Positions 7,529-60,900 of a stretch of DNA of 64,000 nt are shown in pieces; positions within the stretch are counted from its first letter, which is position 1, and each line of letters begins with the position of its first letter. Origin of the DNA: a virus (Duplodnaviria > Heunggongvirae > Uroviricota > Caudoviricetes); IMG/VR virus record IMGVR_UViG_3300031413_000001; one strand, 5' to 3'. The notes under the pieces are model-generated. The model was not told the DNA's origin. It made no database searches and was given only the letters and a program-made list of their open reading frames with translations. A program made the position numbers and the translations under genes.

Positions 7529-8710
7529 TTGAAGCGCATTGAGATCGAAGCCCGTCCCAACTGGGAAGCGGAATGCGAGAAGGTTGGTTTTTACTGGCAC
7601 ACGCTGGCAACCGACCCTGGCGTGGACCCCAAGTATTGGGACGAGACCAAGGCCTACGAGTTCACCGAGGCAGAGGTCGAGCGCATCGAGGAAGCATCCG
7701 CTGAGCTGTACAGGATGTGCCTCTCGGCCGTCGATTACGTGATCGAAAAGGGCCCGGAGATGCTGAGCCGTCTCGCAATCCCGGCCGCATTCCACGAAAT
7801 GGTGATCAAGAGCTGGAAGCGCCAGGATCTGGATCTCTACGGTCGCTTCGACTTTGCGCTGGCGCCCGATGGCACGCCGAAGATGCTGGAATTCAACGCT
7901 GACACGCCGACGAGCCTTCTCGAGGCTGCGGTCGTCCAGTGGTTCTGGATGGAGCAGTACGCGCAGCGAACGGGCCAGACGCTGGATCAGTTCAACAGCA
8001 TTCACGACCGGATGATCGAGCAGATGCGCGATATCGGCGCAGCGGTCCTCGGCCCCAACGAGACGTTCTACTTCGCGGCGGTCGCCGAGAATCTCGAGGA
8101 CAAGGGCACCGCTGAATACTTGCGCGATTGCGCGATGCAGGCCGGCATCAAGACCGACTACATCGACATCGAAAGCATCGGGTGGAACGGAACGGGCTTC
8201 CGCGACATGCAGGAGCAGCCAATCACGACGATCTTCAAGCTGTACCCGTGGGAGTGGCTGGTCCGTGAGGAGTTTGGTCTCCACATGACCAAGGATCCCT
8301 GGGACGTTCTGGAGCCCAGCTGGAAGCTGATCCTGAGCAACAAGGGTCTTCTCCCCATCCTCTGGGAGCTCTACCCCGACCATCCCAATCTTCTCCCCAG
8401 CTACTGGAACAGCGCACCGCTGGGTCTCAACTATGTCGAGAAGCCCATGCTGGCTCGCGAGGGTGCTGACGTGAAGATCATCCGCGATGGCAAAGTGGCC
8501 GTCGAAGGTGTCAAGCGCGGCTACGACAACCTGGCGCGCTCCATCTATCAGGAGTATCTCCCGCTTCCCAAGCACGATGGCATGACGCCGATCATCGGAA
8601 GCTGGATCGTGGGTGGTCGTGCGGTCGGCATGGGGATCCGCGAGGACATCAGCGAGGTCACCGGCAACACGTCGCGCTTCATTCCTCACTTCTTCCGTCC
8701 GGAGGCGTAA
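7529..8710 (+). CDS. Glutathionylspermidine synthase family ATP-grasp protein (YgiC/YjfC-like)
   Basis: LYGRFDF, KMLEFNADTPTSLLEAA, FKLYPWEW, EPSWKLILSNK, SRFIPHF. Confidence 0.95.
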   Translation: MKRIEIEARPNWEAECEKVGFYWHTLATDPGVDPKYWDETKAYEFTEAEVERIEEASAELYRMCLSAVDYVIEKGPEMLSRLAIPAAFHEMVIKSWKRQDLDLYGRFDFALAPDGTPKMLEFNADTPTSLLEAAVVQWFWMEQYAQRTGQTLDQFNSIHDRMIEQMRDIGAAVLGPNETFYFAAVAENLEDKGTAEYLRDCAMQAGIKTDYIDIESIGWNGTGFRDMQEQPITTIFKLYPWEWLVREEFGLHMTKDPWDVLEPSWKLILSNKGLLPILWELYPDHPNLLPSYWNSAPLGLNYVEKPMLAREGADVKIIRDGKVAVEGVKRGYDNLARSIYQEYLPLPKHDGMTPIIGSWIVGGRAVGMGIREDISEVTGNTSRFIPHFFRPEA

Positions 8711-30946: not shown

Positions 30947-31028
30947 GCGGATATGATGAAACTGGTAGACTTGCAGGCATGAGAGGCCTGTGCCTTCGGG
31001 CGTGTGGGTTCGAGTCCCACTATCCGCA
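30947..31028 (+). tRNA. tRNA-Leu(GAG)
   Basis: Type II cloverleaf. Confidence 0.85.
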
Positions 31029-31034
31029 CTCCAC

Positions 31035-31117
31035 GCTCTGGTGGTGAAATGGTAGACGCAGCGCACTCAAAATGCGCCGGCCGCGAGGTCATGAGGGTTC
31101 GAGTCCCTCCTGGAGCA
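31035..31117 (+). tRNA. tRNA-Leu(CAA)
   Basis: Type II cloverleaf. Confidence 0.9.
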
Positions 31118-31174: not shown

Positions 31175-31258
31175 GCGGATATGATGGAATTGGTAGACTT
31201 GCTGCACTCAGAATGCAGTGCCCGAAGGGGCGTGGGGGTTCGACTCCCCCTATCCGCA
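31175..31258 (+). tRNA. tRNA-Leu(CAG)
   Basis: Type II cloverleaf. Confidence 0.9.
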
Positions 31259-31259
31259 C

Positions 31260-31390
31260 GGTGAGCCGATTGATATTGGGTTATCTTTCTGCAAAAAAGC
31301 GAGGCTTGGTTCGAATCCAAGTGCGCCCTCAATGTGGGCGTATAGTGTAGTGGTAGCACCGAAAACATCCAGATCTCCACTTGCTCACCA
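31260..31390 (+). ncRNA. YrlA-like Y RNA containing a circularly permuted tRNA-Cys module
   Basis: Outer stem ggtgagc/gctcacc with CCGAUUG / CCACUUG; order is anticodon (GCA), T arm, closed acceptor, D arm. Confidence 0.75.
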
Positions 31391-31394
31391 TTTT

Positions 31395-31465
31395 GCGCCT
31401 GTAGTTAAACGGTATAACGTTCGGCTGATAACCGGATATTGTAGGTTCGATTCCTTCCGGGCGCA
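31395..31465 (+). tRNA. tRNA-Ile(GAT)
   Basis: Cloverleaf. Confidence 0.85.
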
Positions 31466-38155: not shown

Positions 38156-38345
38156 GGTCACCGATGGGTAACCAGTGGAGGCGGCAGAATTATCTGTAGC
38201 GTCTGCCGGAAGCCCCGACCCTGGTAACAACGCACGGGCCGGACAGTCTGGGTTATCTCAAACTCAAACTTTGAACAAACCCCCAGATTACCAACTTGTC
38301 CGTGTTTTTAACTTCAGTGAAACCCATCTTAAATATCCGGTCACC
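38156..38345 (+). ncRNA. Candidate structured ncRNA
   Basis: gatgggt/acccatc, cggaca/tgtccg, tctggg/cccaga long-range stems. Confidence 0.35.
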
Positions 38346-38363
38346 AGAAAAGGAGATCGGCTT

Positions 38364-38615
38364 ATGTACAATGTGGTTCCTGCACTCGACGCGCTCAAGC
38401 TCGTTGGCGTAAACGCCAAGGATTGGATCATCAAGGCTGCAAAGTCCAAGACGATCTGGTTCTCGGCTGCTCTCACTGTTTTCGGTGCCGTGGAGGGTTT
38501 TCTTCCACAGATGGCAACAGTCCTTGGATCGCACTACGGCGCGGTTATCTCGGTTGTTGGTGTTATCACCGGCTTGCTTCGCTTTGCAACTACGGACGCA
38601 ATCGCGGACAAGTAA
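38364..38615 (+). CDS. Small membrane protein, holin-like
   Basis: KSKTIW followed by two TM helices; aggag RBS. Confidence 0.6.
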   Translation: MYNVVPALDALKLVGVNAKDWIIKAAKSKTIWFSAALTVFGAVEGFLPQMATVLGSHYGAVISVVGVITGLLRFATTDAIADK

Positions 38616-39735: not shown

Positions 39736-39803
39736 GCTCCAACCAATGGATGGAGGCGGTCCTCCTAAGACTGCCCTTGTAGGTTCGACTCCCACTTGGA
39801 GCA
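39736..39803 (+). tRNA. tRNA-Arg(CCT), reduced D arm
   Basis: gcggtc-ctcctaa-gactgc. Confidence 0.55.
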
Positions 39804-39939: not shown

Positions 39940-39979
39940 TTGACTTACGGCTAACCAAGCTGTAGAACAAGAATATGAT

Positions 39980-40052
39980 CGGCGGACCGATCGTTTAGGG
40001 TTATCGCATTGGAAGCACTGGTATGTGGGTTCGAGTCCCACCTCCCCGACCA
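39980..40052 (+). pseudogene. Degenerate tRNA-Pro(TGG)
   Basis: T arm and CCA intact; anticodon stem mostly lost. Confidence 0.5.
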
Positions 40053-40123
40053 CATGACGGGGAGTAGGCCAATTGGATGAGCCGGTTTACATCCTATTCA
40101 ACACTTGTCCGCCGATTATACAT

Positions 40124-40196
40124 GGTCCATTGGAGAAGCGGAGTTCTCGCCACCCTGTCACGGTGGAGATCACGGGTTCGATCCCCGTATGGATCG
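40124..40196 (+). tRNA. tRNA-Asp(GTC), second copy
   Basis: ccacc-ctgtcac-ggtgg. Confidence 0.9.
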
Positions 40197-40199
40197 CTG

Positions 40200-40345
40200 A
40201 ATCAAGAACCGATGGCCTTGGGTTATCGAAAACTAGCTGACCTTGGTCATGTAGGTTCGAGTCCTACCGTTCCGACTTTGACGGAACGTGGCGGAATTTG
40301 GCAGACGCGGCTATTATATCCAGAGCAAACAACTTGTTCTTGATT
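40200..40345 (+). ncRNA. Second YrlA-like Y RNA (permuted Leu-type tRNA module)
   Basis: aatcaagaa/ttcttgatt; CCGAUGG / CAACUUG; T arm, cgttccg-7nt-cggaacg, D arm. Confidence 0.75.
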
Positions 40346-40352
40346 CAATCTT

Positions 40353-40440
40353 GGAAGATTAATTGGACTGGGTCCAAACCTGCCTCGAAAACAGTGTGTG
40401 CGGCTAATACCCGTATGGAGTTCGATTCTCCAGTCTTCCG
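40353..40440 (+). tRNA. tRNA-Ser(CGA)
   Basis: Long arm, G73. Confidence 0.75.
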
Positions 40441-40844: not shown

Positions 40845-40875
40845 GCGGCGCTGGCGAAAGCTGGCGTCGCTTTTT
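40845..40875 (+). terminator. Terminator closing the tRNA array
   Basis: gcggcgctggc-gaaa-gctggcgtcgc followed by ttttt. Confidence 0.75.
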
Positions 40876-49546: not shown

Positions 49547-51076
49547 ATGCAGGTTGCCCAGTTCAACAAGGGTCACGACATCTTCTTCGCCGCGATCGAG
49601 AAGACCCGTATGCCCATGGCACTTACGGATCCCAATCAGCCTGACAATCCAATCGTATTCGTCAACCGGGCGTTTGTTGAGCTCACGGGATACGAGGAAA
49701 CTGAAATCCTTGGCCGTAACTGTCGCTTTCTACAAGGCGAGGATTCTGATCCCGAGACAGTCACGCAGATCCGTGAAGCCATTGCGGCTCGCGAGGATCT
49801 GTCTGTTGAACTCCTGAACTATCGCAAAGATGGCAGCACCTTTTGGAATGCCCTTTACATCAGTCCAGTCTATGACGACAAGAACAACCTGCGATTCTTC
49901 TTTGCCAGCCAGCTGGATATCAGTCGTCGCCACTTGGCCGAGGAAGCACTTCAGCAAGCGCAGAAGATGGAAGCAGTCGGCCAGCTGACCGGTGGCATTG
50001 CCCATGACTTCAACAACATGCTGACCGTCATTCAGGGAAACTTAGAACTTGCGATGGCGAGAGCTAATGGGCAAGACGCCGTGATCAAGCCAATGGATCG
50101 TGCCATGAAGGGTGCCCTCCATGCGGCCAAGCTGACCGAGCAGCTATTGAGCTTTGCCCGAAAGCAGCGCCTGAACAGCACCACGGTCAACTTGAATGAC
50201 ATGGTCACTGGAACCGTTGACGTCATTGCTCGGACGCTTGGTAGCAATGTGGAGATTGGTCTCAACTTGGATCAGGATGTGGCCTTGGTGGAAGTGGACG
50301 TTGTCCAGCTGAACACGGCCATCTTGAACGTTTTGATTAATGCCCGTGACGCGATGCCTCATGGTGGCAAGATCTGCATCTCCACCCACAACGAAACTAT
50401 TGAAGATCCAGGTGAGTGGCTGGTCACGCCGGGAACCTACAGCGTGATCTCCCTAAAGGATGATGGCGTAGGAATTCCTCCCGAGCATATCAAACACGTC
50501 ACGGAGCCCTTTTACACCACCAAGGAAGTTGGCAAGGGAACCGGTATGGGTCTTGCAATGGTCTTTGGATTCCTAAAGCAAAGTGGTGGACACCTCGTCA
50601 TCAACAGCGATGGTGATGGAACTGACATCCGCTTTTACCTGGCTCAGAGCTCCAACGCTGAGATCCACAAGAGCAACGTAAAGGCTCACTTCAAAGAATC
50701 CCCTCGTCGTAGCGAGCGCCTATTGGTTGTTGAGGACAACCAGCAGATCATGGATATGATGCACGACACACTTACGGATCAGGGCTATGACGTCCGCTTT
50801 GCAACCAGTGCCGCAGAAGCCATTGGGATAATGGACGATGGTTTCAAGCCTGAGGTGCTCTGCACGGATATCGTGATGCCTGGTCTGCTGAACGGTGTAG
50901 ATCTCGCCCATGAGGTTAAGAAGCGTTTTCCCAAGGCAAAGGTTCTCCTCTGCACTGGCTGGGCCAATCGTCACCTTGACCGTGAACACGAGTTTTCAAT
51001 CTTGTCCAAGCCCTACAAGCCAAGCGATCTGGTGCAAAGGCTGACCAGCTTGATTGTCCGGGGCCACGAAGGCTAA
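49547..51076 (+). CDS. LOV-domain hybrid sensor histidine kinase (LOV-HisKA-HATPase-REC)
   Basis: GRNCRFLQG; GIAHDFNN H-box; GKGTGMGL; receiver domain LCTDIVMPG. Confidence 0.95.
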   Translation: MQVAQFNKGHDIFFAAIEKTRMPMALTDPNQPDNPIVFVNRAFVELTGYEETEILGRNCRFLQGEDSDPETVTQIREAIAAREDLSVELLNYRKDGSTFWNALYISPVYDDKNNLRFFFASQLDISRRHLAEEALQQAQKMEAVGQLTGGIAHDFNNMLTVIQGNLELAMARANGQDAVIKPMDRAMKGALHAAKLTEQLLSFARKQRLNSTTVNLNDMVTGTVDVIARTLGSNVEIGLNLDQDVALVEVDVVQLNTAILNVLINARDAMPHGGKICISTHNETIEDPGEWLVTPGTYSVISLKDDGVGIPPEHIKHVTEPFYTTKEVGKGTGMGLAMVFGFLKQSGGHLVINSDGDGTDIRFYLAQSSNAEIHKSNVKAHFKESPRRSERLLVVEDNQQIMDMMHDTLTDQGYDVRFATSAAEAIGIMDDGFKPEVLCTDIVMPGLLNGVDLAHEVKKRFPKAKVLLCTGWANRHLDREHEFSILSKPYKPSDLVQRLTSLIVRGHEG

Positions 51077-52588: not shown

Positions 52589-54646
52589 ATGTCCGGCGCT
52601 CTCCGCCCGAACACACCAAACATCAAAATGATTAAATACACGGGTATCCTCCTGAAAGGTAGCTTCGTGTCTAAACATCTTTTCACCCCACATTCCAGTG
52701 AGATGGCAAAGCGGATGCAAGCCCATGATTGGGACAGCACTCCACTTGGCTCTTCGGATGGGTGGCCGGAGACTTTGAAGACTCTTGTCCGCATTATGCT
52801 TGCAAGTGGTCAGCCTATGTTTACAACATGGGGACCAGATCGAATCCTACTTTACAATGATCCATATATTCAGATGCTGGCTGATCGTCATCCAATGGCG
52901 CTGGGTCAGCGATTCAATGATGTGTGGGTTGAAGCGATGCCCGACTTGGAACCACTGTTCCATCAAGTCTACGAGGGCTTTCCAGTATTCATGGACGACC
53001 TAACTCTCTTTCTAGACCGGGAAGGCTTCCCCAAGGAAAGTCACTTTGCATTCAGCTATACGCCAATTCGTCCCATGGTTGGTGAAGAGATCCTGGGCTT
53101 GTTCTGTGCCTGCACAGAGACAACCAACAGTGTGATGGCGCGCAAAAAGGTGGACATGGAGCGTGAACGCTTGTTCCGCATGAGCAGCGACTTGTTCGCA
53201 GTTGGAACCTTTGATGGATACCTGCTGAGTGTAAATCCTGCATGGTCAGTATCGCTGGAACGCACTGACGAAGAACTCCTAGCTATTCCCTTTCTGGATA
53301 TCATCCACCCCGAGGATCTGGAAAAAGTTGAGATTGCTGTTGAGATAATGCGAAGTGGAGAGCCTCATCAGTTCCACACTCGTCTTCTAAAGAGCGATGG
53401 GACGTCACGCAATTTTGCATGGTCGTCAATTCCCGATACAGATTCCAGTAGCTCAATCTTCTACACCGTTGGCCGTGATATCACGGATGAGGTGCAGCGA
53501 GAAGAGATGTTCCGTCAGGCACAAAAGATGGAGGCCGTTGGTCAGTTGACCGGAGGTGTCGCTCATGATTTCAACAACCTCTTGACAGTTATCCAGGGAT
53601 CCGTTGATCTGTTGCGTCGCGCTGATCTACCGGAAGCCCGACGAGTCAAGTACATTGATGCCATTGCCAACACCAGCAAGAGGGCAGCCAAGCTGACAAG
53701 CCAGCTGTTGGCTTTTGCTCGTCGCCAGGCACTGAAGCCAGCGGTGTTTGAAGTTGGTCAGAATGTCCGCGCAGTCACGGATATGATCCAGAGTCTAATG
53801 GGTGGAAAGATCAATGTAACGACGCTGTTCAGCGATCTCCCCTGCTATGTGAATGCAGACCCCAGCCAGTTTGATACAGCGATTGTCAACATGGCAATCA
53901 ACGCACGTGATGCAATGGACCATGAGGGAGCATTGACGATCACCGTAAAGGAAGTCGACAGTCTGCCGGCTGTTCGAGAGAATGCCGCCATCGCTTCCAG
54001 CTACATCTCGGTTAGCCTTGAGGACAACGGATGCGGCATTCCTGCTGATCAGATCAACAAGATCTTTGAGCCGTTCTTCACAACCAAGGACACTGGCAAG
54101 GGCACTGGACTGGGCTTGAGTCAGGTCTTTGGTTTCTCACGCCAGAGCGGAGGCGAGATTCAAGTTGAGAGCGAAGTTGGAGTTGGTAGCAAGTTCACAC
54201 TATTCCTTCCATCGGTCGAGGAACCCGCGGAGTTCAAGACTGAGGGCGAAGTAATTGAGCTGGTAAAGGGACACGGTACGAGAGTTCTGCTAGTTGAAGA
54301 CAATGCCGATGTTGGAAACTTTGCGACTCAAGCACTCAATGAGCTTGGCTATGAAACCGTATGGTCCGCTACAGCAGACGAGGCCTTGGAAGAACTAGCC
54401 GAGTGCGATGATTGCTTTGACATCGTGTTCAGTGATGTTGTGATGCCTGGTATGAATGGCGTTGAGCTTGGCCATGAGATCCGTCGACTATACAAGAACT
54501 TGCCCGTGGTACTAACCAGCGGCTACAGTCATGTATTGGCCAAGAACGGTACTTACGGCTTTGAACTACTTCACAAGCCATACAGTATCGAACAGCTCAG
54601 TCAGATTTTGAGCAAGGCGCTTGCTTGGAAAAAGGCTAATTCCTAA
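52589..54646 (+). CDS. PAS-PAS hybrid sensor histidine kinase with receiver (true start probably ~52668-52703)
   Basis: WDSTPLG, HFAFSYTP, GVAHDFNN, GKGTGLGL, VFSDVVMPG. Confidence 0.95.
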   Translation: MSGALRPNTPNIKMIKYTGILLKGSFVSKHLFTPHSSEMAKRMQAHDWDSTPLGSSDGWPETLKTLVRIMLASGQPMFTTWGPDRILLYNDPYIQMLADRHPMALGQRFNDVWVEAMPDLEPLFHQVYEGFPVFMDDLTLFLDREGFPKESHFAFSYTPIRPMVGEEILGLFCACTETTNSVMARKKVDMERERLFRMSSDLFAVGTFDGYLLSVNPAWSVSLERTDEELLAIPFLDIIHPEDLEKVEIAVEIMRSGEPHQFHTRLLKSDGTSRNFAWSSIPDTDSSSSIFYTVGRDITDEVQREEMFRQAQKMEAVGQLTGGVAHDFNNLLTVIQGSVDLLRRADLPEARRVKYIDAIANTSKRAAKLTSQLLAFARRQALKPAVFEVGQNVRAVTDMIQSLMGGKINVTTLFSDLPCYVNADPSQFDTAIVNMAINARDAMDHEGALTITVKEVDSLPAVRENAAIASSYISVSLEDNGCGIPADQINKIFEPFFTTKDTGKGTGLGLSQVFGFSRQSGGEIQVESEVGVGSKFTLFLPSVEEPAEFKTEGEVIELVKGHGTRVLLVEDNADVGNFATQALNELGYETVWSATADEALEELAECDDCFDIVFSDVVMPGMNGVELGHEIRRLYKNLPVVLTSGYSHVLAKNGTYGFELLHKPYSIEQLSQILSKALAWKKANS

Positions 54647-59268: not shown

Positions 59269-60900
59269 TTGAAAACGGATCGGATGATGATTTACTGCTG
59301 GTCTGAACCAGCATATCCCGGCGAGTATAAAGTTGGTGAGCATTGGGTCAGTGACATGACCCTGGATGATGCAATACAGCATACTATCGCAGGTCGTATC
59401 AGAAGCTCTTTAGGCGTCAGGAAAGATCTCTTTGACAGGGATCGCATCAAGGTACACTTTGTGATCGACGCATCCGTGTATGCGCGTCAAAAGAACAAGT
59501 TTCATCCCAGATCAAAACTAGACGCAGAACTTCACCAATTGATTGAAGGACGCTACGGCCTAGGAGAAGTCTTCGACTGCGAGTATCAACAAATCGTTGA
59601 TGTGATCGAGAGGGAAATCGACAAGATCAATACCCATCAAGTCGAAGTTACTATAAAGAGTAAGAGCTTCAAAAAGCTCTTGAAGATGAAGGATCGCGCC
59701 AGTTGTATTTTGGACCAGGGTGATCCAAAGGATGTTTGGAAAGAGATCGTAGATCGTATCCCATTCACACGTAAGCGACCTTCATTCTTGATTGTCGCTT
59801 GTGGTTATGGTACCGAAGTATCACTTCTCATTGAACGCCTGCAAAAGCTGGGATGGTCTGATACTGCGATCAAGCGATCGATAACTATTAATGACCGATC
59901 GGATCAATTTACGAAAACATGGGAGGAGGCTGGATATACCACGGTTGTTGGCGACCTGTTGTATCTGGATTTTGGTATGAAATTTGACATCATTCTGGGA
60001 AATCCTCCTTATCAGGATTCTACCACTGGTAGTGGTAAGCTATATCCAAAATTCTTTGCCAAGTGCTTCGATGACTTGCTGATCGACGATGGGTACCTTG
60101 GATTCATAACGCCCATGGCGTGGATGTCTCACTTCAATGATGAGAATGAGCGCTCCAGGAACAAGGAATTGGATCGTATGAAACATGCAATGCGATCCAA
60201 CTTCTTGGTCTTTGTAGACTTCAAGGAAACTTTGAAGCATTTCGAAGGGGTTGGTTCGACCTTCTCCTCGTACATACTCCAGAAATCTACGGTCAAGGGA
60301 AAAACCTATATCCGCGACTCTGATGAATATCTAGATGTTCCCTACATGAAGTCCTTCCCCAAAGACTTTAGCGTACTGTCCTTTTCGATCTTCAATAAGA
60401 TGAAGAGTGATATAACACTCCCACTTATCGAAGGCGGAACCTATGCCCATATGGGCTTTCATTCAGGCCCGGCTGACAAGAAGGCTAAGAAGCCTATTAC
60501 CTATCAGACATCTGAATACTGCAACCCACTGTTCCACACCAATGGCATCATCCTGTATTCTGATATCAAACATCCACTGCAAGATTCTAAGAAAGTAATC
60601 GCATCGCTTTCTGGATACTTCTCCCCGCGTTTCGATGATGGCGAGCTAGGGCTTTCGCAGCATGGTGTTGCTATTCTAGTTGAGAATGAAGAGGCTGCGA
60701 AAAGTGTGATTTCAATTTTGAACTCCAAGCTGTATGGATTTCTCATGGAGCAAACGAAGCACAGCGGATTCACCAACCAGTATTCGCTAAGGAGTATGCC
60801 ATTTCTAACAACTGATCAGATTTGGTCGGATGCCGACATTTACCACGAGTTTGGTCTCACCTCTGCTGAAATCAATTATATTGAGGAGTCCTCAAAGTGA
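59269..60900 (+). CDS. Eco57I/TaqI-type adenine DNA methyltransferase (NPPY + target-recognition domain)
   Basis: KFDIILGNPPYQD; GYLGFITP; degenerate motif I ACGYGT. Confidence 0.85.
   Translation: MKTDRMMIYCWSEPAYPGEYKVGEHWVSDMTLDDAIQHTIAGRIRSSLGVRKDLFDRDRIKVHFVIDASVYARQKNKFHPRSKLDAELHQLIEGRYGLGEVFDCEYQQIVDVIEREIDKINTHQVEVTIKSKSFKKLLKMKDRASCILDQGDPKDVWKEIVDRIPFTRKRPSFLIVACGYGTEVSLLIERLQKLGWSDTAIKRSITINDRSDQFTKTWEEAGYTTVVGDLLYLDFGMKFDIILGNPPYQDSTTGSGKLYPKFFAKCFDDLLIDDGYLGFITPMAWMSHFNDENERSRNKELDRMKHAMRSNFLVFVDFKETLKHFEGVGSTFSSYILQKSTVKGKTYIRDSDEYLDVPYMKSFPKDFSVLSFSIFNKMKSDITLPLIEGGTYAHMGFHSGPADKKAKKPITYQTSEYCNPLFHTNGIILYSDIKHPLQDSKKVIASLSGYFSPRFDDGELGLSQHGVAILVENEEAAKSVISILNSKLYGFLMEQTKHSGFTNQYSLRSMPFLTTDQIWSDADIYHEFGLTSAEINYIEESSK

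What the first reader, a model, noticed from the sequence alone, without database searches (positions are those of the whole stretch)
40200..40345. Second Y RNA from a different tRNA donor
It has the same frame as the first (CCGAUGG...UGGGUUAU at the 5-prime side, AUCCAG...CAACUUG at the 3-prime side, 7-nt acceptor loop). The tRNA module is different: a Leu-type D arm and a cgttccg/cggaacg stem. A conserved Ro60-type scaffold with swapped tRNA modules suggests a modular adaptor system presenting different tRNA mimics.
Basis: partly seen in the sequence, partly recalled or inferred. Interest (0 to 1): 0.8.

Follow-up and report, generated by a model that had tools for sequence, protein, structure and literature searches.

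The report
Phage Y RNA mimicking leucine tRNA
This ~155-base stretch of a giant phage's tRNA gene array is very probably a Y RNA, the small partner RNA of the Ro60 protein, whose built-in tRNA look-alike copies a leucine tRNA; it is a new variant of a known kind of RNA, not a new kind.

Summary
Window 40198-40352 (+) holds a structured non-coding RNA. It has a 12-bp terminal stem and a Ro60-type bulged helix (CCGAUGG…UGGGUUAUC / AUCCAG…CAACUUG). Its tRNA body is in the order V hairpin, T arm, 7-bp acceptor stem closed by a 7-nt loop, then D arm.

- **Family:** a covariance model built from it finds two more full-length copies in the window (39976-40119, 31255-31398) and one short form (38232-38305). 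It also finds dozens in other jumbo phages and in Chloroflexota genomes.
- **Structure:** across 27 distinct relatives, 92.6% of cells pair and 38 of 44 pairs show compensatory changes. U8-A14 is invariant and the 15-48 Levitt pair covaries.
- **Leu type:** 24 of the 25 best matches to its D arm among 577 phage tRNAs are tRNA-Leu.
- **Ro60 link:** Leu-type relatives lie directly beside Ro60 genes in one phage contig and in at least 10 Chloroflexota loci. The sister phage encodes Ro60 at least 86 kb away.

YrlA-type Y RNAs, phage Ro60 and long variable loops are published, but Rfam's YrlA model misses this subtype. This scan has noted Leu-type Y RNAs on other phage DNA before. Ro60 binding, expression and the function of the tRNA-like module are untested.

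The parts
40198..40352 (+). Whole Leu-type Y RNA (E2). The ends are inferred from the flanking tRNA genes.
   Evidence: R1 match 40198-40348, 181.9 bits. tRNA-Asp ends at 40197 and the next tRNA-like gene starts at 40353.
40198..40209 (+). Outer stem, 5' strand. It pairs with 40336-40347 (12 perfect bp).
   Evidence: Sequence. Present in the MFE and centroid folds. Helices 1-2 show 11 of 14 pairs with double changes in relatives, and RNAalifold recovers the stem on an unfitted alignment.
40209..40227 (+). Ro60-type 5' motif CCGAUGG…UGGGUUAUC: bulged C40210, G40211·U40335, A40212-U40334.
   Evidence: The core pairs are near-invariant across 27 relatives: G-C 25, C-G 23, G·U 25, A-U 18. A full-length alignment to the sbRNA family RF01656 runs through this motif.
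40216..40223 (+). Second frame helix, 5' strand. It pairs with 40318-40325 (AUCCAGAG).
   Evidence: Helix 3 is 91.4% paired, with 6 of 7 pairs showing double changes.
40234..40237 (+). Anticodon-stem-like 4-bp helix UAGC, pairing with GCUA at 40310-40313.
   Evidence: Helix 4 is 82.3% paired, with 4 of 4 pairs showing double changes.
40238..40249 (+). V hairpin (class II type variable arm): 4 bp plus a CUUG loop.
   Evidence: Compensatory A-U to G-C change against G001. Present in 6 of 7 phage Leu-type relatives. ARAGORN draws it as a long variable arm in the de-permuted test.
40251..40267 (+). T arm: GUAGG, UUCGAGU, CCUAC.
   Evidence: Helix 6 is 99.3% paired. T-loop UUCGAGU.
40268..40288 (+). 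Acceptor-like stem (7 bp) closed by the 7-nt loop ACUUUGA.
   Evidence: Compensatory U-A to C-G change against G001. Helix 7 is 97.8% paired, with 7 of 7 pairs showing double changes.
40289..40309 (+). U8, G9 and a Leu-type D arm with a 3-bp stem (GCG/CGC), A14, A15 and G18G19.
   Evidence: 24 of the 25 best matches among 577 phage tRNAs are tRNA-Leu. U8-A14 is 28/28, and A15 pairs with U48 (U40250).
40318..40347 (+). 3' frame: AUCCAGAG, internal loop, CAACUUG, and the outer stem 3' strand.
40124..40197 (+). Flanking tRNA-Asp(GTC). Its 3' end abuts the Y RNA 5' end.
40353..40439 (+). Flanking tRNA-Ser(CGA)-like gene with a long variable arm. Its 5' end would define the Y RNA 3' end through an RNase P cut (inferred).
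   Evidence: tRNA-Sec model 37.5 bits, E 1.2e-5, anticodon loop CUCGAAA. ARAGORN does not call it.
39976..40119 (+). Sister Y RNA E1: same frame, different tRNA-like module, acceptor loop beginning with A-CCA.
   Evidence: R1 73.4 bits. Rfam YrlA 33.8 bits over the full model length.
31255..31398 (+).
   Evidence: R1 35.2 bits.. Note e1-5436762.
38232..38305 (+). Short Y-like RNA with the frame only and no tRNA module (YrlB-like).
   Evidence: R1 21.2 bits with filters off. Motif hit. Fold.
40845..40870 (+). Intrinsic terminator closing the tRNA / Y RNA array.
   Evidence: 11-bp stem with 8 G-C pairs, followed by a T run.

Best explanation
E2 is a YrlA-class Y RNA of a jumbo phage. It is transcribed as part of the long tRNA array. 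Because it sits flush between tRNA-Asp and a tRNA-Ser-like gene, it is probably released by the enzymes that mature those tRNAs (inferred). It folds into two modules. The first is a long terminal stem carrying the conserved bulged helix that Ro60 proteins recognise, which would dock it onto the phage-encoded Ro60 (inferred). The second is an L-shaped tRNA look-alike in permuted order whose D arm, extra arm and A15:U48 pair copy a leucine tRNA but which has no anticodon loop, so it cannot decode. By analogy with Deinococcus and Salmonella Y RNAs and with Thermus phage phiLo, the RNA would gate Ro60 and/or tether it to a partner such as host PNPase or another tRNA-binding protein, tuning RNA surveillance during infection. 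Like M. smegmatis YrlA it has a 7-bp acceptor stem, so cleavage by RNase P in the acceptor loop is plausible but not shown.
For: Structure is shown.
- Covariation on 27 distinct relatives: 92.6% of cells paired and 38 of 44 pairs with double changes. The covariation score is 0.688, against 0.19 for shuffles and about 0.09-0.10 for slid controls.
- RNAalifold on an unfitted alignment recovers the outer stem, T arm, acceptor stem and D stem.
- Compensatory changes are seen even against the 95%-identical sister phage.
- tRNA tertiary signatures hold: U8-A14 in 28/28, and the Levitt pair is G:C 14, A:U 12, G:G 2 with no mismatched combination.
- ARAGORN accepts the de-permuted module as a class II cloverleaf.

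Leu type is shown: 24 of the 25 best D-arm matches are tRNA-Leu.

The Ro60 link is comparative.
- The frame core next to the bulged C is near-invariant. It resembles the Y RNA/sbRNA consensus (sbRNAs are Y RNA homologues, PMC4726728).
- The Leu-type relative in L131 lies 239 nt upstream of a TROVE+vWA_Ro60 ORF on the same strand.
- In at least 10 Chloroflexota loci, Leu-type Y RNAs follow rsr on the same strand, and those Ro60 proteins are 48-50% identical to the phage protein.
- All 7 near-complete jumbo phage records carrying these RNAs encode TROVE.

Precedents:
- YrlA and RNase P cleavage with CCA addition (PMC4201824).
- Phage Ro60 binding two Y-like RNAs and host PNPase (PMC12135203).
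- Long class II like variable loops in YrlAs (10.1101/312249).
Against:
- No Ro60 gene lies in the window. In the sister genome G001 it is at least 86 kb from the Y RNAs, unlike the classic arrangement within 4 kb.
- Rfam YrlA gives only a 14.8-bit local hit against a gathering score of 69.
- The 5' motif AACCGAUGG departs from the published GNCGAAN0-1G at two positions.
- The thermodynamic MFE (-50.4 kcal/mol) is not the cloverleaf-like fold (-37.0 kcal/mol).
- My attempted negative control for TROVE co-occurrence was confounded, because the control records had been picked by the same motif and 4 of 5 also had TROVE.
- The covariation alignment is fitted to the model.
Confidence: 0.8

Rival explanations
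1. Two-piece tRNA-Leu mimic as the main function. RNase P cuts before C40282, the upstream half is trimmed and given CCA, and the nicked RNA acts mainly as a tRNA-Leu-like molecule that binds LeuRS, EF-Tu or other tRNA-Leu-specific factors and may be charged. The Ro-type stem would be secondary.
For: - E2 has a 7-bp acceptor stem, the feature that makes M. smegmatis YrlA an RNase P substrate followed by CCA addition (PMC4201824).
- An A occupies the discriminator position of E2.
- 9 of 27 distinct phage relatives encode N-CCA exactly at the start of the acceptor loop, against about 0.4 expected. One relative carries a 104-nt insert there.
- From textbook knowledge, not tested here: LeuRS does not read the anticodon.
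Against: - E2 itself has no CCA (loop ACUUUGA), and its G001 copy has ACAACUGA.
- Cellular Leu-type relatives rarely have N-CCA (3 of 37) and do not keep an A at the discriminator position.
- G001 encodes no CCA-adding enzyme.
- The strongly conserved Ro-type frame and the adjacency to rsr point to Ro60 as the primary partner.
- This reading is compatible with, rather than exclusive of, the Y RNA reading.
Confidence: 0.08
2. Ro60-independent tRNA decoy or processing element. The tRNA-Leu-like body soaks up a host tRNA-targeting factor (a defence nuclease or a modification enzyme), or the element serves only as a spacer and processing signal in the array. The terminal stem would give stability only.
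For: - It sits in a tRNA array more than 86 kb from Ro60.
- Scan notes report other permuted tRNA-like RNA families that follow a different protein, DUF7873, rather than Ro60 (unchecked).
- The module keeps isotype-like features.
Against: - The frame is not a generic stem. Its bulged-C core and the GGGUUAUC / AUCC…ACUUG motifs are conserved while the rest of the stem covaries freely.
- The same frame with a Leu-type module is found immediately beside rsr in L131 and in Chloroflexota.
- Every near-complete phage record carrying it has TROVE.
Confidence: 0.08
3. Decaying remnant of a tandem tRNA-Leu dimer, or a false positive from two adjacent tRNA genes, with no function of its own.
For: - Tandem tRNAs can mimic the T-arm / D-arm order. 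My own model gives a partial 22.6-bit hit on the tRNA-Leu/tRNA-Leu junction at 30988-31061.
- Chen et al. discarded hits overlapping tandem tRNA genes for this reason.
Against: - No tRNA is called in 40198-40352 by ARAGORN or by the Rfam tRNA model.
- The flanks form a 12-bp stem with the Ro-type motif rather than tRNA arms.
- The structure is kept by compensatory changes across distant phages and bacteria.
Confidence: 0.02

Closest known systems
YrlA (Y RNA-like A) of Salmonella Typhimurium, Mycobacterium smegmatis and mycobacteriophages; Rfam RF02553 (Chen et al. 2014, PMC4201824; structure in Wang et al. 2018, 10.1101/312249)
   Same: - Two modules: a terminal stem with a Ro60/Rsr-binding motif, plus a tRNA-like domain in the order V region, T arm, closed acceptor stem-loop, D arm.
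- tRNA tertiary pairs are kept, including a covarying Levitt pair.
- Long class II like variable loops are already noted for many YrlAs.
- A 7-bp acceptor stem, as in M. smegmatis YrlA, which RNase P cuts.
   Different: - The D arm is tRNA-Leu type (3-bp GCG/CGC stem) and the T stem is GUAGG/CCUAC. They are not the strongly conserved YrlA D/T stems.
- The Rfam model gives only 14.8 bits and misses all Leu-type relatives tested.
- The gene lies inside a tRNA array more than 86 kb from Ro60 rather than within 4 kb.
- It is one of at least 4 Y-like RNAs in the window.
Thermus phage phiLo Ro60 with Yrl1 and Yrl2 (PMC12135203)
   Same: A phage-encoded Ro60 with more than one phage-encoded Y-like RNA. 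That paper shows Ro60 binding and a complex with host PNPase.
   Different: Those Yrls were found just upstream of the Ro60 gene by a CGAA motif, and the paper's text does not call them tRNA-like ('tRNA-like' occurs 0 times). Here the RNAs sit far from Ro60 among tRNAs and carry full tRNA-like modules.
Vertebrate Y RNAs and nematode stem-bulge RNAs (Rfam RF01656 ceN72-3_ceN74-2)
   Same: A terminal stem with a bulged C followed by GA/UU. The motifs GGUUAUC (5' side) and CAACUUG (3' side) align with the sbRNA consensus.
   Different: The score is below threshold (23.5 bits against a gathering score of 38). Metazoan Y RNAs have no tRNA-like module.
Bacterial and phage tRNA-Leu (class II tRNA)
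   Same: The D arm is almost identical to real phage tRNA-Leu D arms. It has a long variable arm, A15:U48, an A at the discriminator position, and a 7-bp acceptor stem.
   Different: The arm order is permuted, the acceptor stem is closed by a loop, there is no CCA and no anticodon loop. It cannot decode.

Membership tests
YrlA-class Y RNA (Chen et al. 2014; Rfam RF02553) | 5' and 3' ends pair into a long stem carrying the Ro60/Rsr-binding motif (GNCGAAN0-1G, related to vertebrate GGUCCGA, with a bulged helix) | tested here: met
   A 12-bp stem, bulged C40210, G·U and A-U. The core is near-invariant in 27 relatives. The motif here is AACCGAUGG, a variant at two positions; most relatives read GAGCCGA or GGGCCGA.
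YrlA-class Y RNA (Chen et al. 2014; Rfam RF02553) | tRNA-like domain in the order V region, T arm, closed acceptor-like stem-loop, D arm | tested here: met
YrlA-class Y RNA (Chen et al. 2014; Rfam RF02553) | tRNA tertiary interactions kept (U8-A14, G18G19, T-loop, covarying 15-48 Levitt pair) | tested here: met
   U8-A14 in 28/28. Positions 15-48 are G:C 14, A:U 12, G:G 2. The T-loop is UUCGAGU.
YrlA-class Y RNA (Chen et al. 2014; Rfam RF02553) | Strongly conserved YrlA D-stem and T-stem sequences (Wang et al. 2018) | tested here: not met
   E2 has GCG/CGC and GUAGG/CCUAC. The Rfam consensus has GCUC/GAGC and CGGG/CCCG.
YrlA-class Y RNA (Chen et al. 2014; Rfam RF02553) | Reaches the Rfam gathering score (69 bits) | tested here: not met
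   A 14.8-bit local hit for E2. No Leu-type relative is detected at E<=0.01.
YrlA-class Y RNA (Chen et al. 2014; Rfam RF02553) | Encoded within about 4 kb of the Ro60 gene on the same strand | tested here: not met
   There is no TROVE among the 10 largest window ORFs scanned. In G001 it lies at least 86 kb away. The feature is met by Leu-type relatives in L131 (239 nt upstream) and in Chloroflexota loci.
YrlA-class Y RNA (Chen et al. 2014; Rfam RF02553) | Bound by Ro60/Rsr in vivo or in vitro | not testable with these tools
   Needs EMSA or RIP. Complex prediction handles proteins only.
Metazoan Y RNA / nematode sbRNA (RF00019, RF01656) | Reaches the family gathering score | tested here: not met
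   RF01656 scores 23.5 bits against 38. There is no RF00019 hit at E<=10.
Functional tRNA-Leu | Standard arm order with an anticodon arm and a free CCA-accepting end | tested here: not met
   No tRNA call by ARAGORN or the Rfam tRNA model. There is no anticodon loop and the acceptor stem is closed.
Circularly permuted tRNA genes (Cyanidioschyzon type) | All tRNA parts, including an intact anticodon loop, are present so that circularisation and cleavage give a normal tRNA | tested here: not met
   A 40-bp-scale Ro-type stem stands in place of the anticodon loop.
Two-piece (permuted) tmRNA | Tag reading frame and pseudoknots; detected by ARAGORN or RF04321 | tested here: not met
   ARAGORN finds no tmRNA. 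RF04321 gives only a 17.9-bit partial hit, on E1 and not on E2.

The most novel reading that the evidence does not exclude
Jumbo phages and Chloroflexota keep panels of Y RNAs whose tRNA-like modules each copy a particular tRNA isotype (Leu type here; a G15:G48 type and others beside it). Many are cut in the acceptor loop to expose an encoded CCA end. Ro60 particles would then be coupled to, or regulated by, isotype-specific tRNA-binding proteins such as synthetases or host tRNA-targeting defence nucleases. That would make a tRNA-state sensing or decoy system rather than a generic tether.
Probability: 0.15. Interest if true: 0.8.

Novelty: new variant of a known kind. Interest (0 to 1): 0.5.

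Why it matters
Y RNAs with a tRNA-like half have been known since 2014, but what that half binds is still open.

- **Not one conserved shape:** the tRNA-like half comes in distinct, conserved, isotype-like versions. The Leu type has a long arm and is missed by the public YrlA model. Several versions coexist per genome.
- **Surveys undercount:** in giant phages these RNAs sit inside tRNA arrays far from Ro60. Published surveys were limited to within 4 kb of Ro60 and excluded tandem tRNA regions, so they miss them.
- **Origin and processing:** encoded CCA remnants in relatives fit the proposed origin of these RNAs from tandem tRNAs. They also hint that many are processed into two pieces.
- **Experiments:** this gives concrete, testable substrates for finding the missing effector of bacterial and phage Ro60 particles.

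Tried and rejected
- **Rfam gathering scan of the whole window:** only tRNAs, no YrlA.
- **Megablast against 50,697 phage records:** only short tRNA-Asp matches, no near relative.
- **Own genome:** not held. I used the sister record G001, which is 95% identical over this locus.
- **MFE folding:** it does not give the cloverleaf-like fold (-50.4 against -37.0 kcal/mol), so thermodynamics alone neither proves nor disproves it.
- **D arm against the window's own 49 tRNAs:** a four-way tie (Pro, two Leu, one Asn-labelled long tRNA). I therefore dropped the idea that the module was copied from a resident tRNA-Leu gene.
- **TROVE co-occurrence control on five other jumbo phage records:** confounded, because those records had been chosen by the same motif and 4 of 5 have TROVE, two with the motif right beside it.
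- **MAFFT seed alignment including L032:** it shifted the frame by one column, so I seeded the model from the window and G001 only.
- **Literature:** the Chen et al. supplement and two Wolin-lab reviews are not held. Full-text searches found no paper on Y RNAs inside phage tRNA arrays or with Leu-type modules.
- **The look-up of sequencing runs:** closed, so there was no expression test and read laying was not used.
- **RtcB and CCA-adding enzyme:** neither is found in G001, so a phage-encoded RNA-repair operon context was rejected.
- **Other readings:** tandem-tRNA artefact, permuted tRNA gene and two-piece tmRNA were considered and rejected (see the membership tests).

Full report
**Setting.** The window is jumbo phage DNA. 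Its own assembly is not held. The nearest record, G001, is a 416.7-kb IMG/VR virus that shares 60% of the sampled 31-mers and is 95% identical over the locus studied. ARAGORN tRNA genes, nearly all on the + strand between 29.0 and 40.9 kb. A strong intrinsic terminator at 40845-40870 closes this array. The flagged stretch lies between tRNA-Asp (40124-40197) and a tRNA-Ser(CGA)-like gene at 40353-40439. ARAGORN misses the latter, but the tRNA-Sec model aligns it at full length with 37.5 bits.

**Observation.** The ends form a perfect 12-bp helix (40198-40209 with 40336-40347). This is followed by a bulged C40210, G·U and A-U pairs, an internal loop, and a second helix (CUUGGGU with AUCCAGAG). 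Inside lie:
- a 4-bp helix UAGC/GCUA;
- a 4-bp hairpin at 40238-40249;
- a T arm with loop UUCGAGU;
- a 7-bp stem, cgttccg/cggaacg, closed by the 7-nt loop ACUUUGA;
- U8, G9 and a D arm.

The sequence folds better than all 200 shuffles (z = -3.4). The motif CCGAN7GGGTTATC occurs three times in the window against 0.32 expected.

**Known RNA families.** Rfam gives no hit at gathering level. At permissive thresholds the neighbouring element at 39997-40114 aligns over the full length of the YrlA model (33.8 bits, gathering score 69). The target gets only a local 14.8-bit YrlA hit. Its best full-length match is the nematode stem-bulge RNA family RF01656 (23.5 bits, E 0.034), aligned through GGGUUAUC and CAACUUG. 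Stem-bulge RNAs are described as homologues of Y RNAs (PMC4726728).

**Is the tRNA-like body real?**
- When the two halves are rejoined in normal order with a supplied loop, ARAGORN draws a regular class II cloverleaf with a long variable arm. The anticodon in that test is mine, so only the geometry counts.
- The minimum-energy fold differs from this cloverleaf (-50.4 against -37.0 kcal/mol). Thermodynamics alone therefore does not settle the matter.

**Comparison with the sister phage.** Against G001, the neighbouring element E1 is identical. E2 differs at about 15 positions. These include a U-A to C-G change in the acceptor stem and an A-U to G-C change in the extra hairpin, plus 1-2-nt indels in loops, which rule out a coding region.

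**The wider family.** I built a covariance model (R1) from the two E2 copies and my structure. In the window it finds:
- E2 at 181.9 bits, against 19.1 bits on the opposite strand;
- E1 at 39976-40119 (73.4 bits);
- a third full-length element at 31255-31398 (35.2 bits);
- with filters off, a short form at about 38232-38305 that has the frame but no tRNA body.

A pattern scan of viral contigs followed by R1 found dozens more, mostly in 275-480-kb phage contigs and often 2-6 per locus.

**Covariation.** On the 28 best matches (27 distinct):
- 92.6% of cells are paired.
- 38 of 44 pairs show changes on both sides.
- The covariation score is 0.688, against 0.19 for shuffles and about 0.09-0.10 when partners are slid by 1-3 columns. 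No shuffle of 500 reaches the observed value.

That alignment is fitted to the model. RNAalifold on an unfitted MAFFT alignment of seven Leu-type members independently recovers the outer stem, T arm, acceptor stem and D stem, and 17 of its 27 predicted pairs show compensatory changes. The pairs next to the bulged C barely vary (G-C 25, C-G 23, G·U 25, A-U 18 of 27) while the rest of the stem covaries freely. That is the pattern expected of a protein-binding site.

**tRNA tertiary signatures.** U8 and A14 are invariant (28/28). Positions 15 and 48 covary as G:C (14), A:U (12) or G:G (2), with no mismatched combination. E2 has A15:U48.

**Leu type.** E2's D arm was compared with 577 unique tRNAs that ARAGORN finds in the fetched phage loci. 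Of the 25 best matches, 24 are tRNA-Leu, and the best differ by a single extra U. E1 and E3 give no such clean isotype. Against this phage's own 49 tRNAs the match is a four-way tie, so the module was not copied recently from a resident tRNA-Leu gene.

Phage relatives with the same D arm are:
- L032:6017-6170;
- L102:8607-8759;
- L030:11227-11475;
- L123:4136-4302, identical to L125;
- L131:9066-9217.

All but L131 keep the extra hairpin. L007:1792-1934 has the hairpin with a related class II D arm.

**Link to Ro60.**
- G001 encodes a 573-aa TROVE + Ro60-vWA protein, but at least 86 kb from the Y RNAs. A first-stage note places the Ro60 gene of this very genome 89 kb before the window (not checked by me).
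- All seven near-complete jumbo phage records with these RNAs have TROVE. In G003, G005 and G007 it is again more than 100 kb from the RNAs.
- In L131 the Leu-type RNA lies 239 nt upstream of a 568-aa TROVE + vWA_Ro60 ORF on the same strand. A short sbRNA-like Y RNA lies just before it.
- In at least 10 Chloroflexota loci (Anaerolineae, Aggregatilineales), rsr is followed on the same strand by 2-5 tandem Y RNAs that include a Leu-type one. Those Ro60 proteins are 48-50% identical to the phage protein.
- A control set of five other jumbo phage records was not a true negative set. Those records had been picked by the same motif, and 4 of 5 turned out to have TROVE.

**What is already known.**
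- Chen et al. 2014 (PMC4201824) described YrlA RNAs with T, acceptor-like, D and V regions near Ro60 in 254 bacteria and 22 phages. They reported only hits within 4 kb of Ro60 and discarded hits overlapping tandem tRNA genes, so elements like this one fall outside their net. They also showed that M. smegmatis YrlA, which has a 7-bp acceptor stem, is cut by RNase P and receives CCA.
- Wang et al. 2018 (10.1101/312249) state that many YrlAs have long, class II like variable loops. They stress strong conservation of the D and T stems, and they discuss an origin from dimeric tRNAs, possibly several times.
- Thermus phage phiLo Ro60 binds two phage Y-like RNAs and forms a complex with host PNPase (PMC12135203).
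- Rfam's YrlA model detects only the class I type Y RNAs in the loci I tested (32-48 bits, below threshold) and none of the Leu-type ones.
- I found no paper on Y RNAs inside phage tRNA arrays or with Leu-type modules in the held library.
- AI notes from this scan report Leu-type Y RNAs in other phage genomes. They agree with my reading but are not independent evidence.

**Mechanism.**
- *Shown:* a conserved two-module RNA structure with a Leu-type tRNA-like domain.
- *Shown comparatively:* a genomic link between this RNA type and Ro60.
- *Inferred:* release from the array transcript by maturation of the flanking tRNAs, because the stem starts one base after tRNA-Asp and ends five bases before the next tRNA. 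Also inferred are docking on phage Ro60 through the bulged helix and use of the tRNA-like domain to gate or tether Ro60, as in the Ro60-Y RNA-PNPase machine.
- *Speculative:* cleavage in the acceptor loop. E2 has the 7-bp stem and an A at the discriminator position but no CCA. In contrast, 9 of 27 distinct phage relatives encode N-CCA at exactly that place, against about 0.4 expected (the relatives are not independent). One relative has a 104-nt insert there. G001 has no RtcB or CCA-adding enzyme, so host enzymes would be needed.

**Verdict.** This is a genuine Y RNA of the YrlA class with a tRNA-Leu-type module. It is one of at least four Y-like RNAs in this window. I class it as a new variant of a known kind.

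Noticed in passing
window 39976-40119 (+): A further full Y-like RNA (E1) lies directly upstream of tRNA-Asp. It is 100% identical in G001. Its acceptor loop begins with A-CCA, and its acceptor stem-loop sequence is identical to that of the Leu-type element in L032.
   Followed up: partly
window 38232-38305 (+): A short Y-like RNA has the full Ro-type frame (GGGCCGGACAGUCUGGGUUAUC … CCCAGAUUACCAACUUGUCCGUG) but no tRNA module, so it is YrlB-like. It is followed by a T run. It overlaps a 146-aa GTG-start ORF (38175-38615) that may be spurious.
   Followed up: partly
Its UUUC can pair either with a distal GAAA or locally, forming an anticodon-like hairpin with loop CUGCAAA.
   Followed up: partly
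window 40353-40439 (+): An 87-nt tRNA-Ser(CGA)-like gene with a long variable arm is not called by ARAGORN (tRNA-Sec model 37.5 bits, below the gathering score of 47).
   Followed up: no
window 39736-39803 (+): A weak tRNA-like element (tRNA model 19.3 bits) has a defective D arm and the anticodon-loop sequence CUCCUAA.
   Followed up: no
L030:11227-11475 (-): A Leu-type Y RNA in a 465-kb phage has an acceptor 'loop' of 104 nt that starts with A-CCA. It may be an insertion or a processed spacer.
   Followed up: no
L158, L165, L140, L150, L159, L166 (Chloroflexota MAG contigs): rsr (Ro60) is followed on the same strand by 2-5 tandem Y RNAs of different module types. The Ro60 proteins are 48-50% identical to the phage protein, which hints at gene exchange with, or a host among, Chloroflexota.
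   Followed up: partly
L131:8890-8958 (+): A short RNA just upstream of the Leu-type Y RNA and Ro60 scores 35.6 bits on the nematode sbRNA model, close to its gathering score of 38.
   Followed up: no
window 49547-51076 and 52589-54646 (+): Two phage-encoded hybrid sensor kinases have PAS, HisKA, HATPase and receiver domains. A glutathionylspermidine synthase-like ORF lies at 7529-8710 and an Eco57I-type methylase ORF at 59269-60900.
   Followed up: no
It may be a phage genome binned as an archaeon.
   Followed up: no
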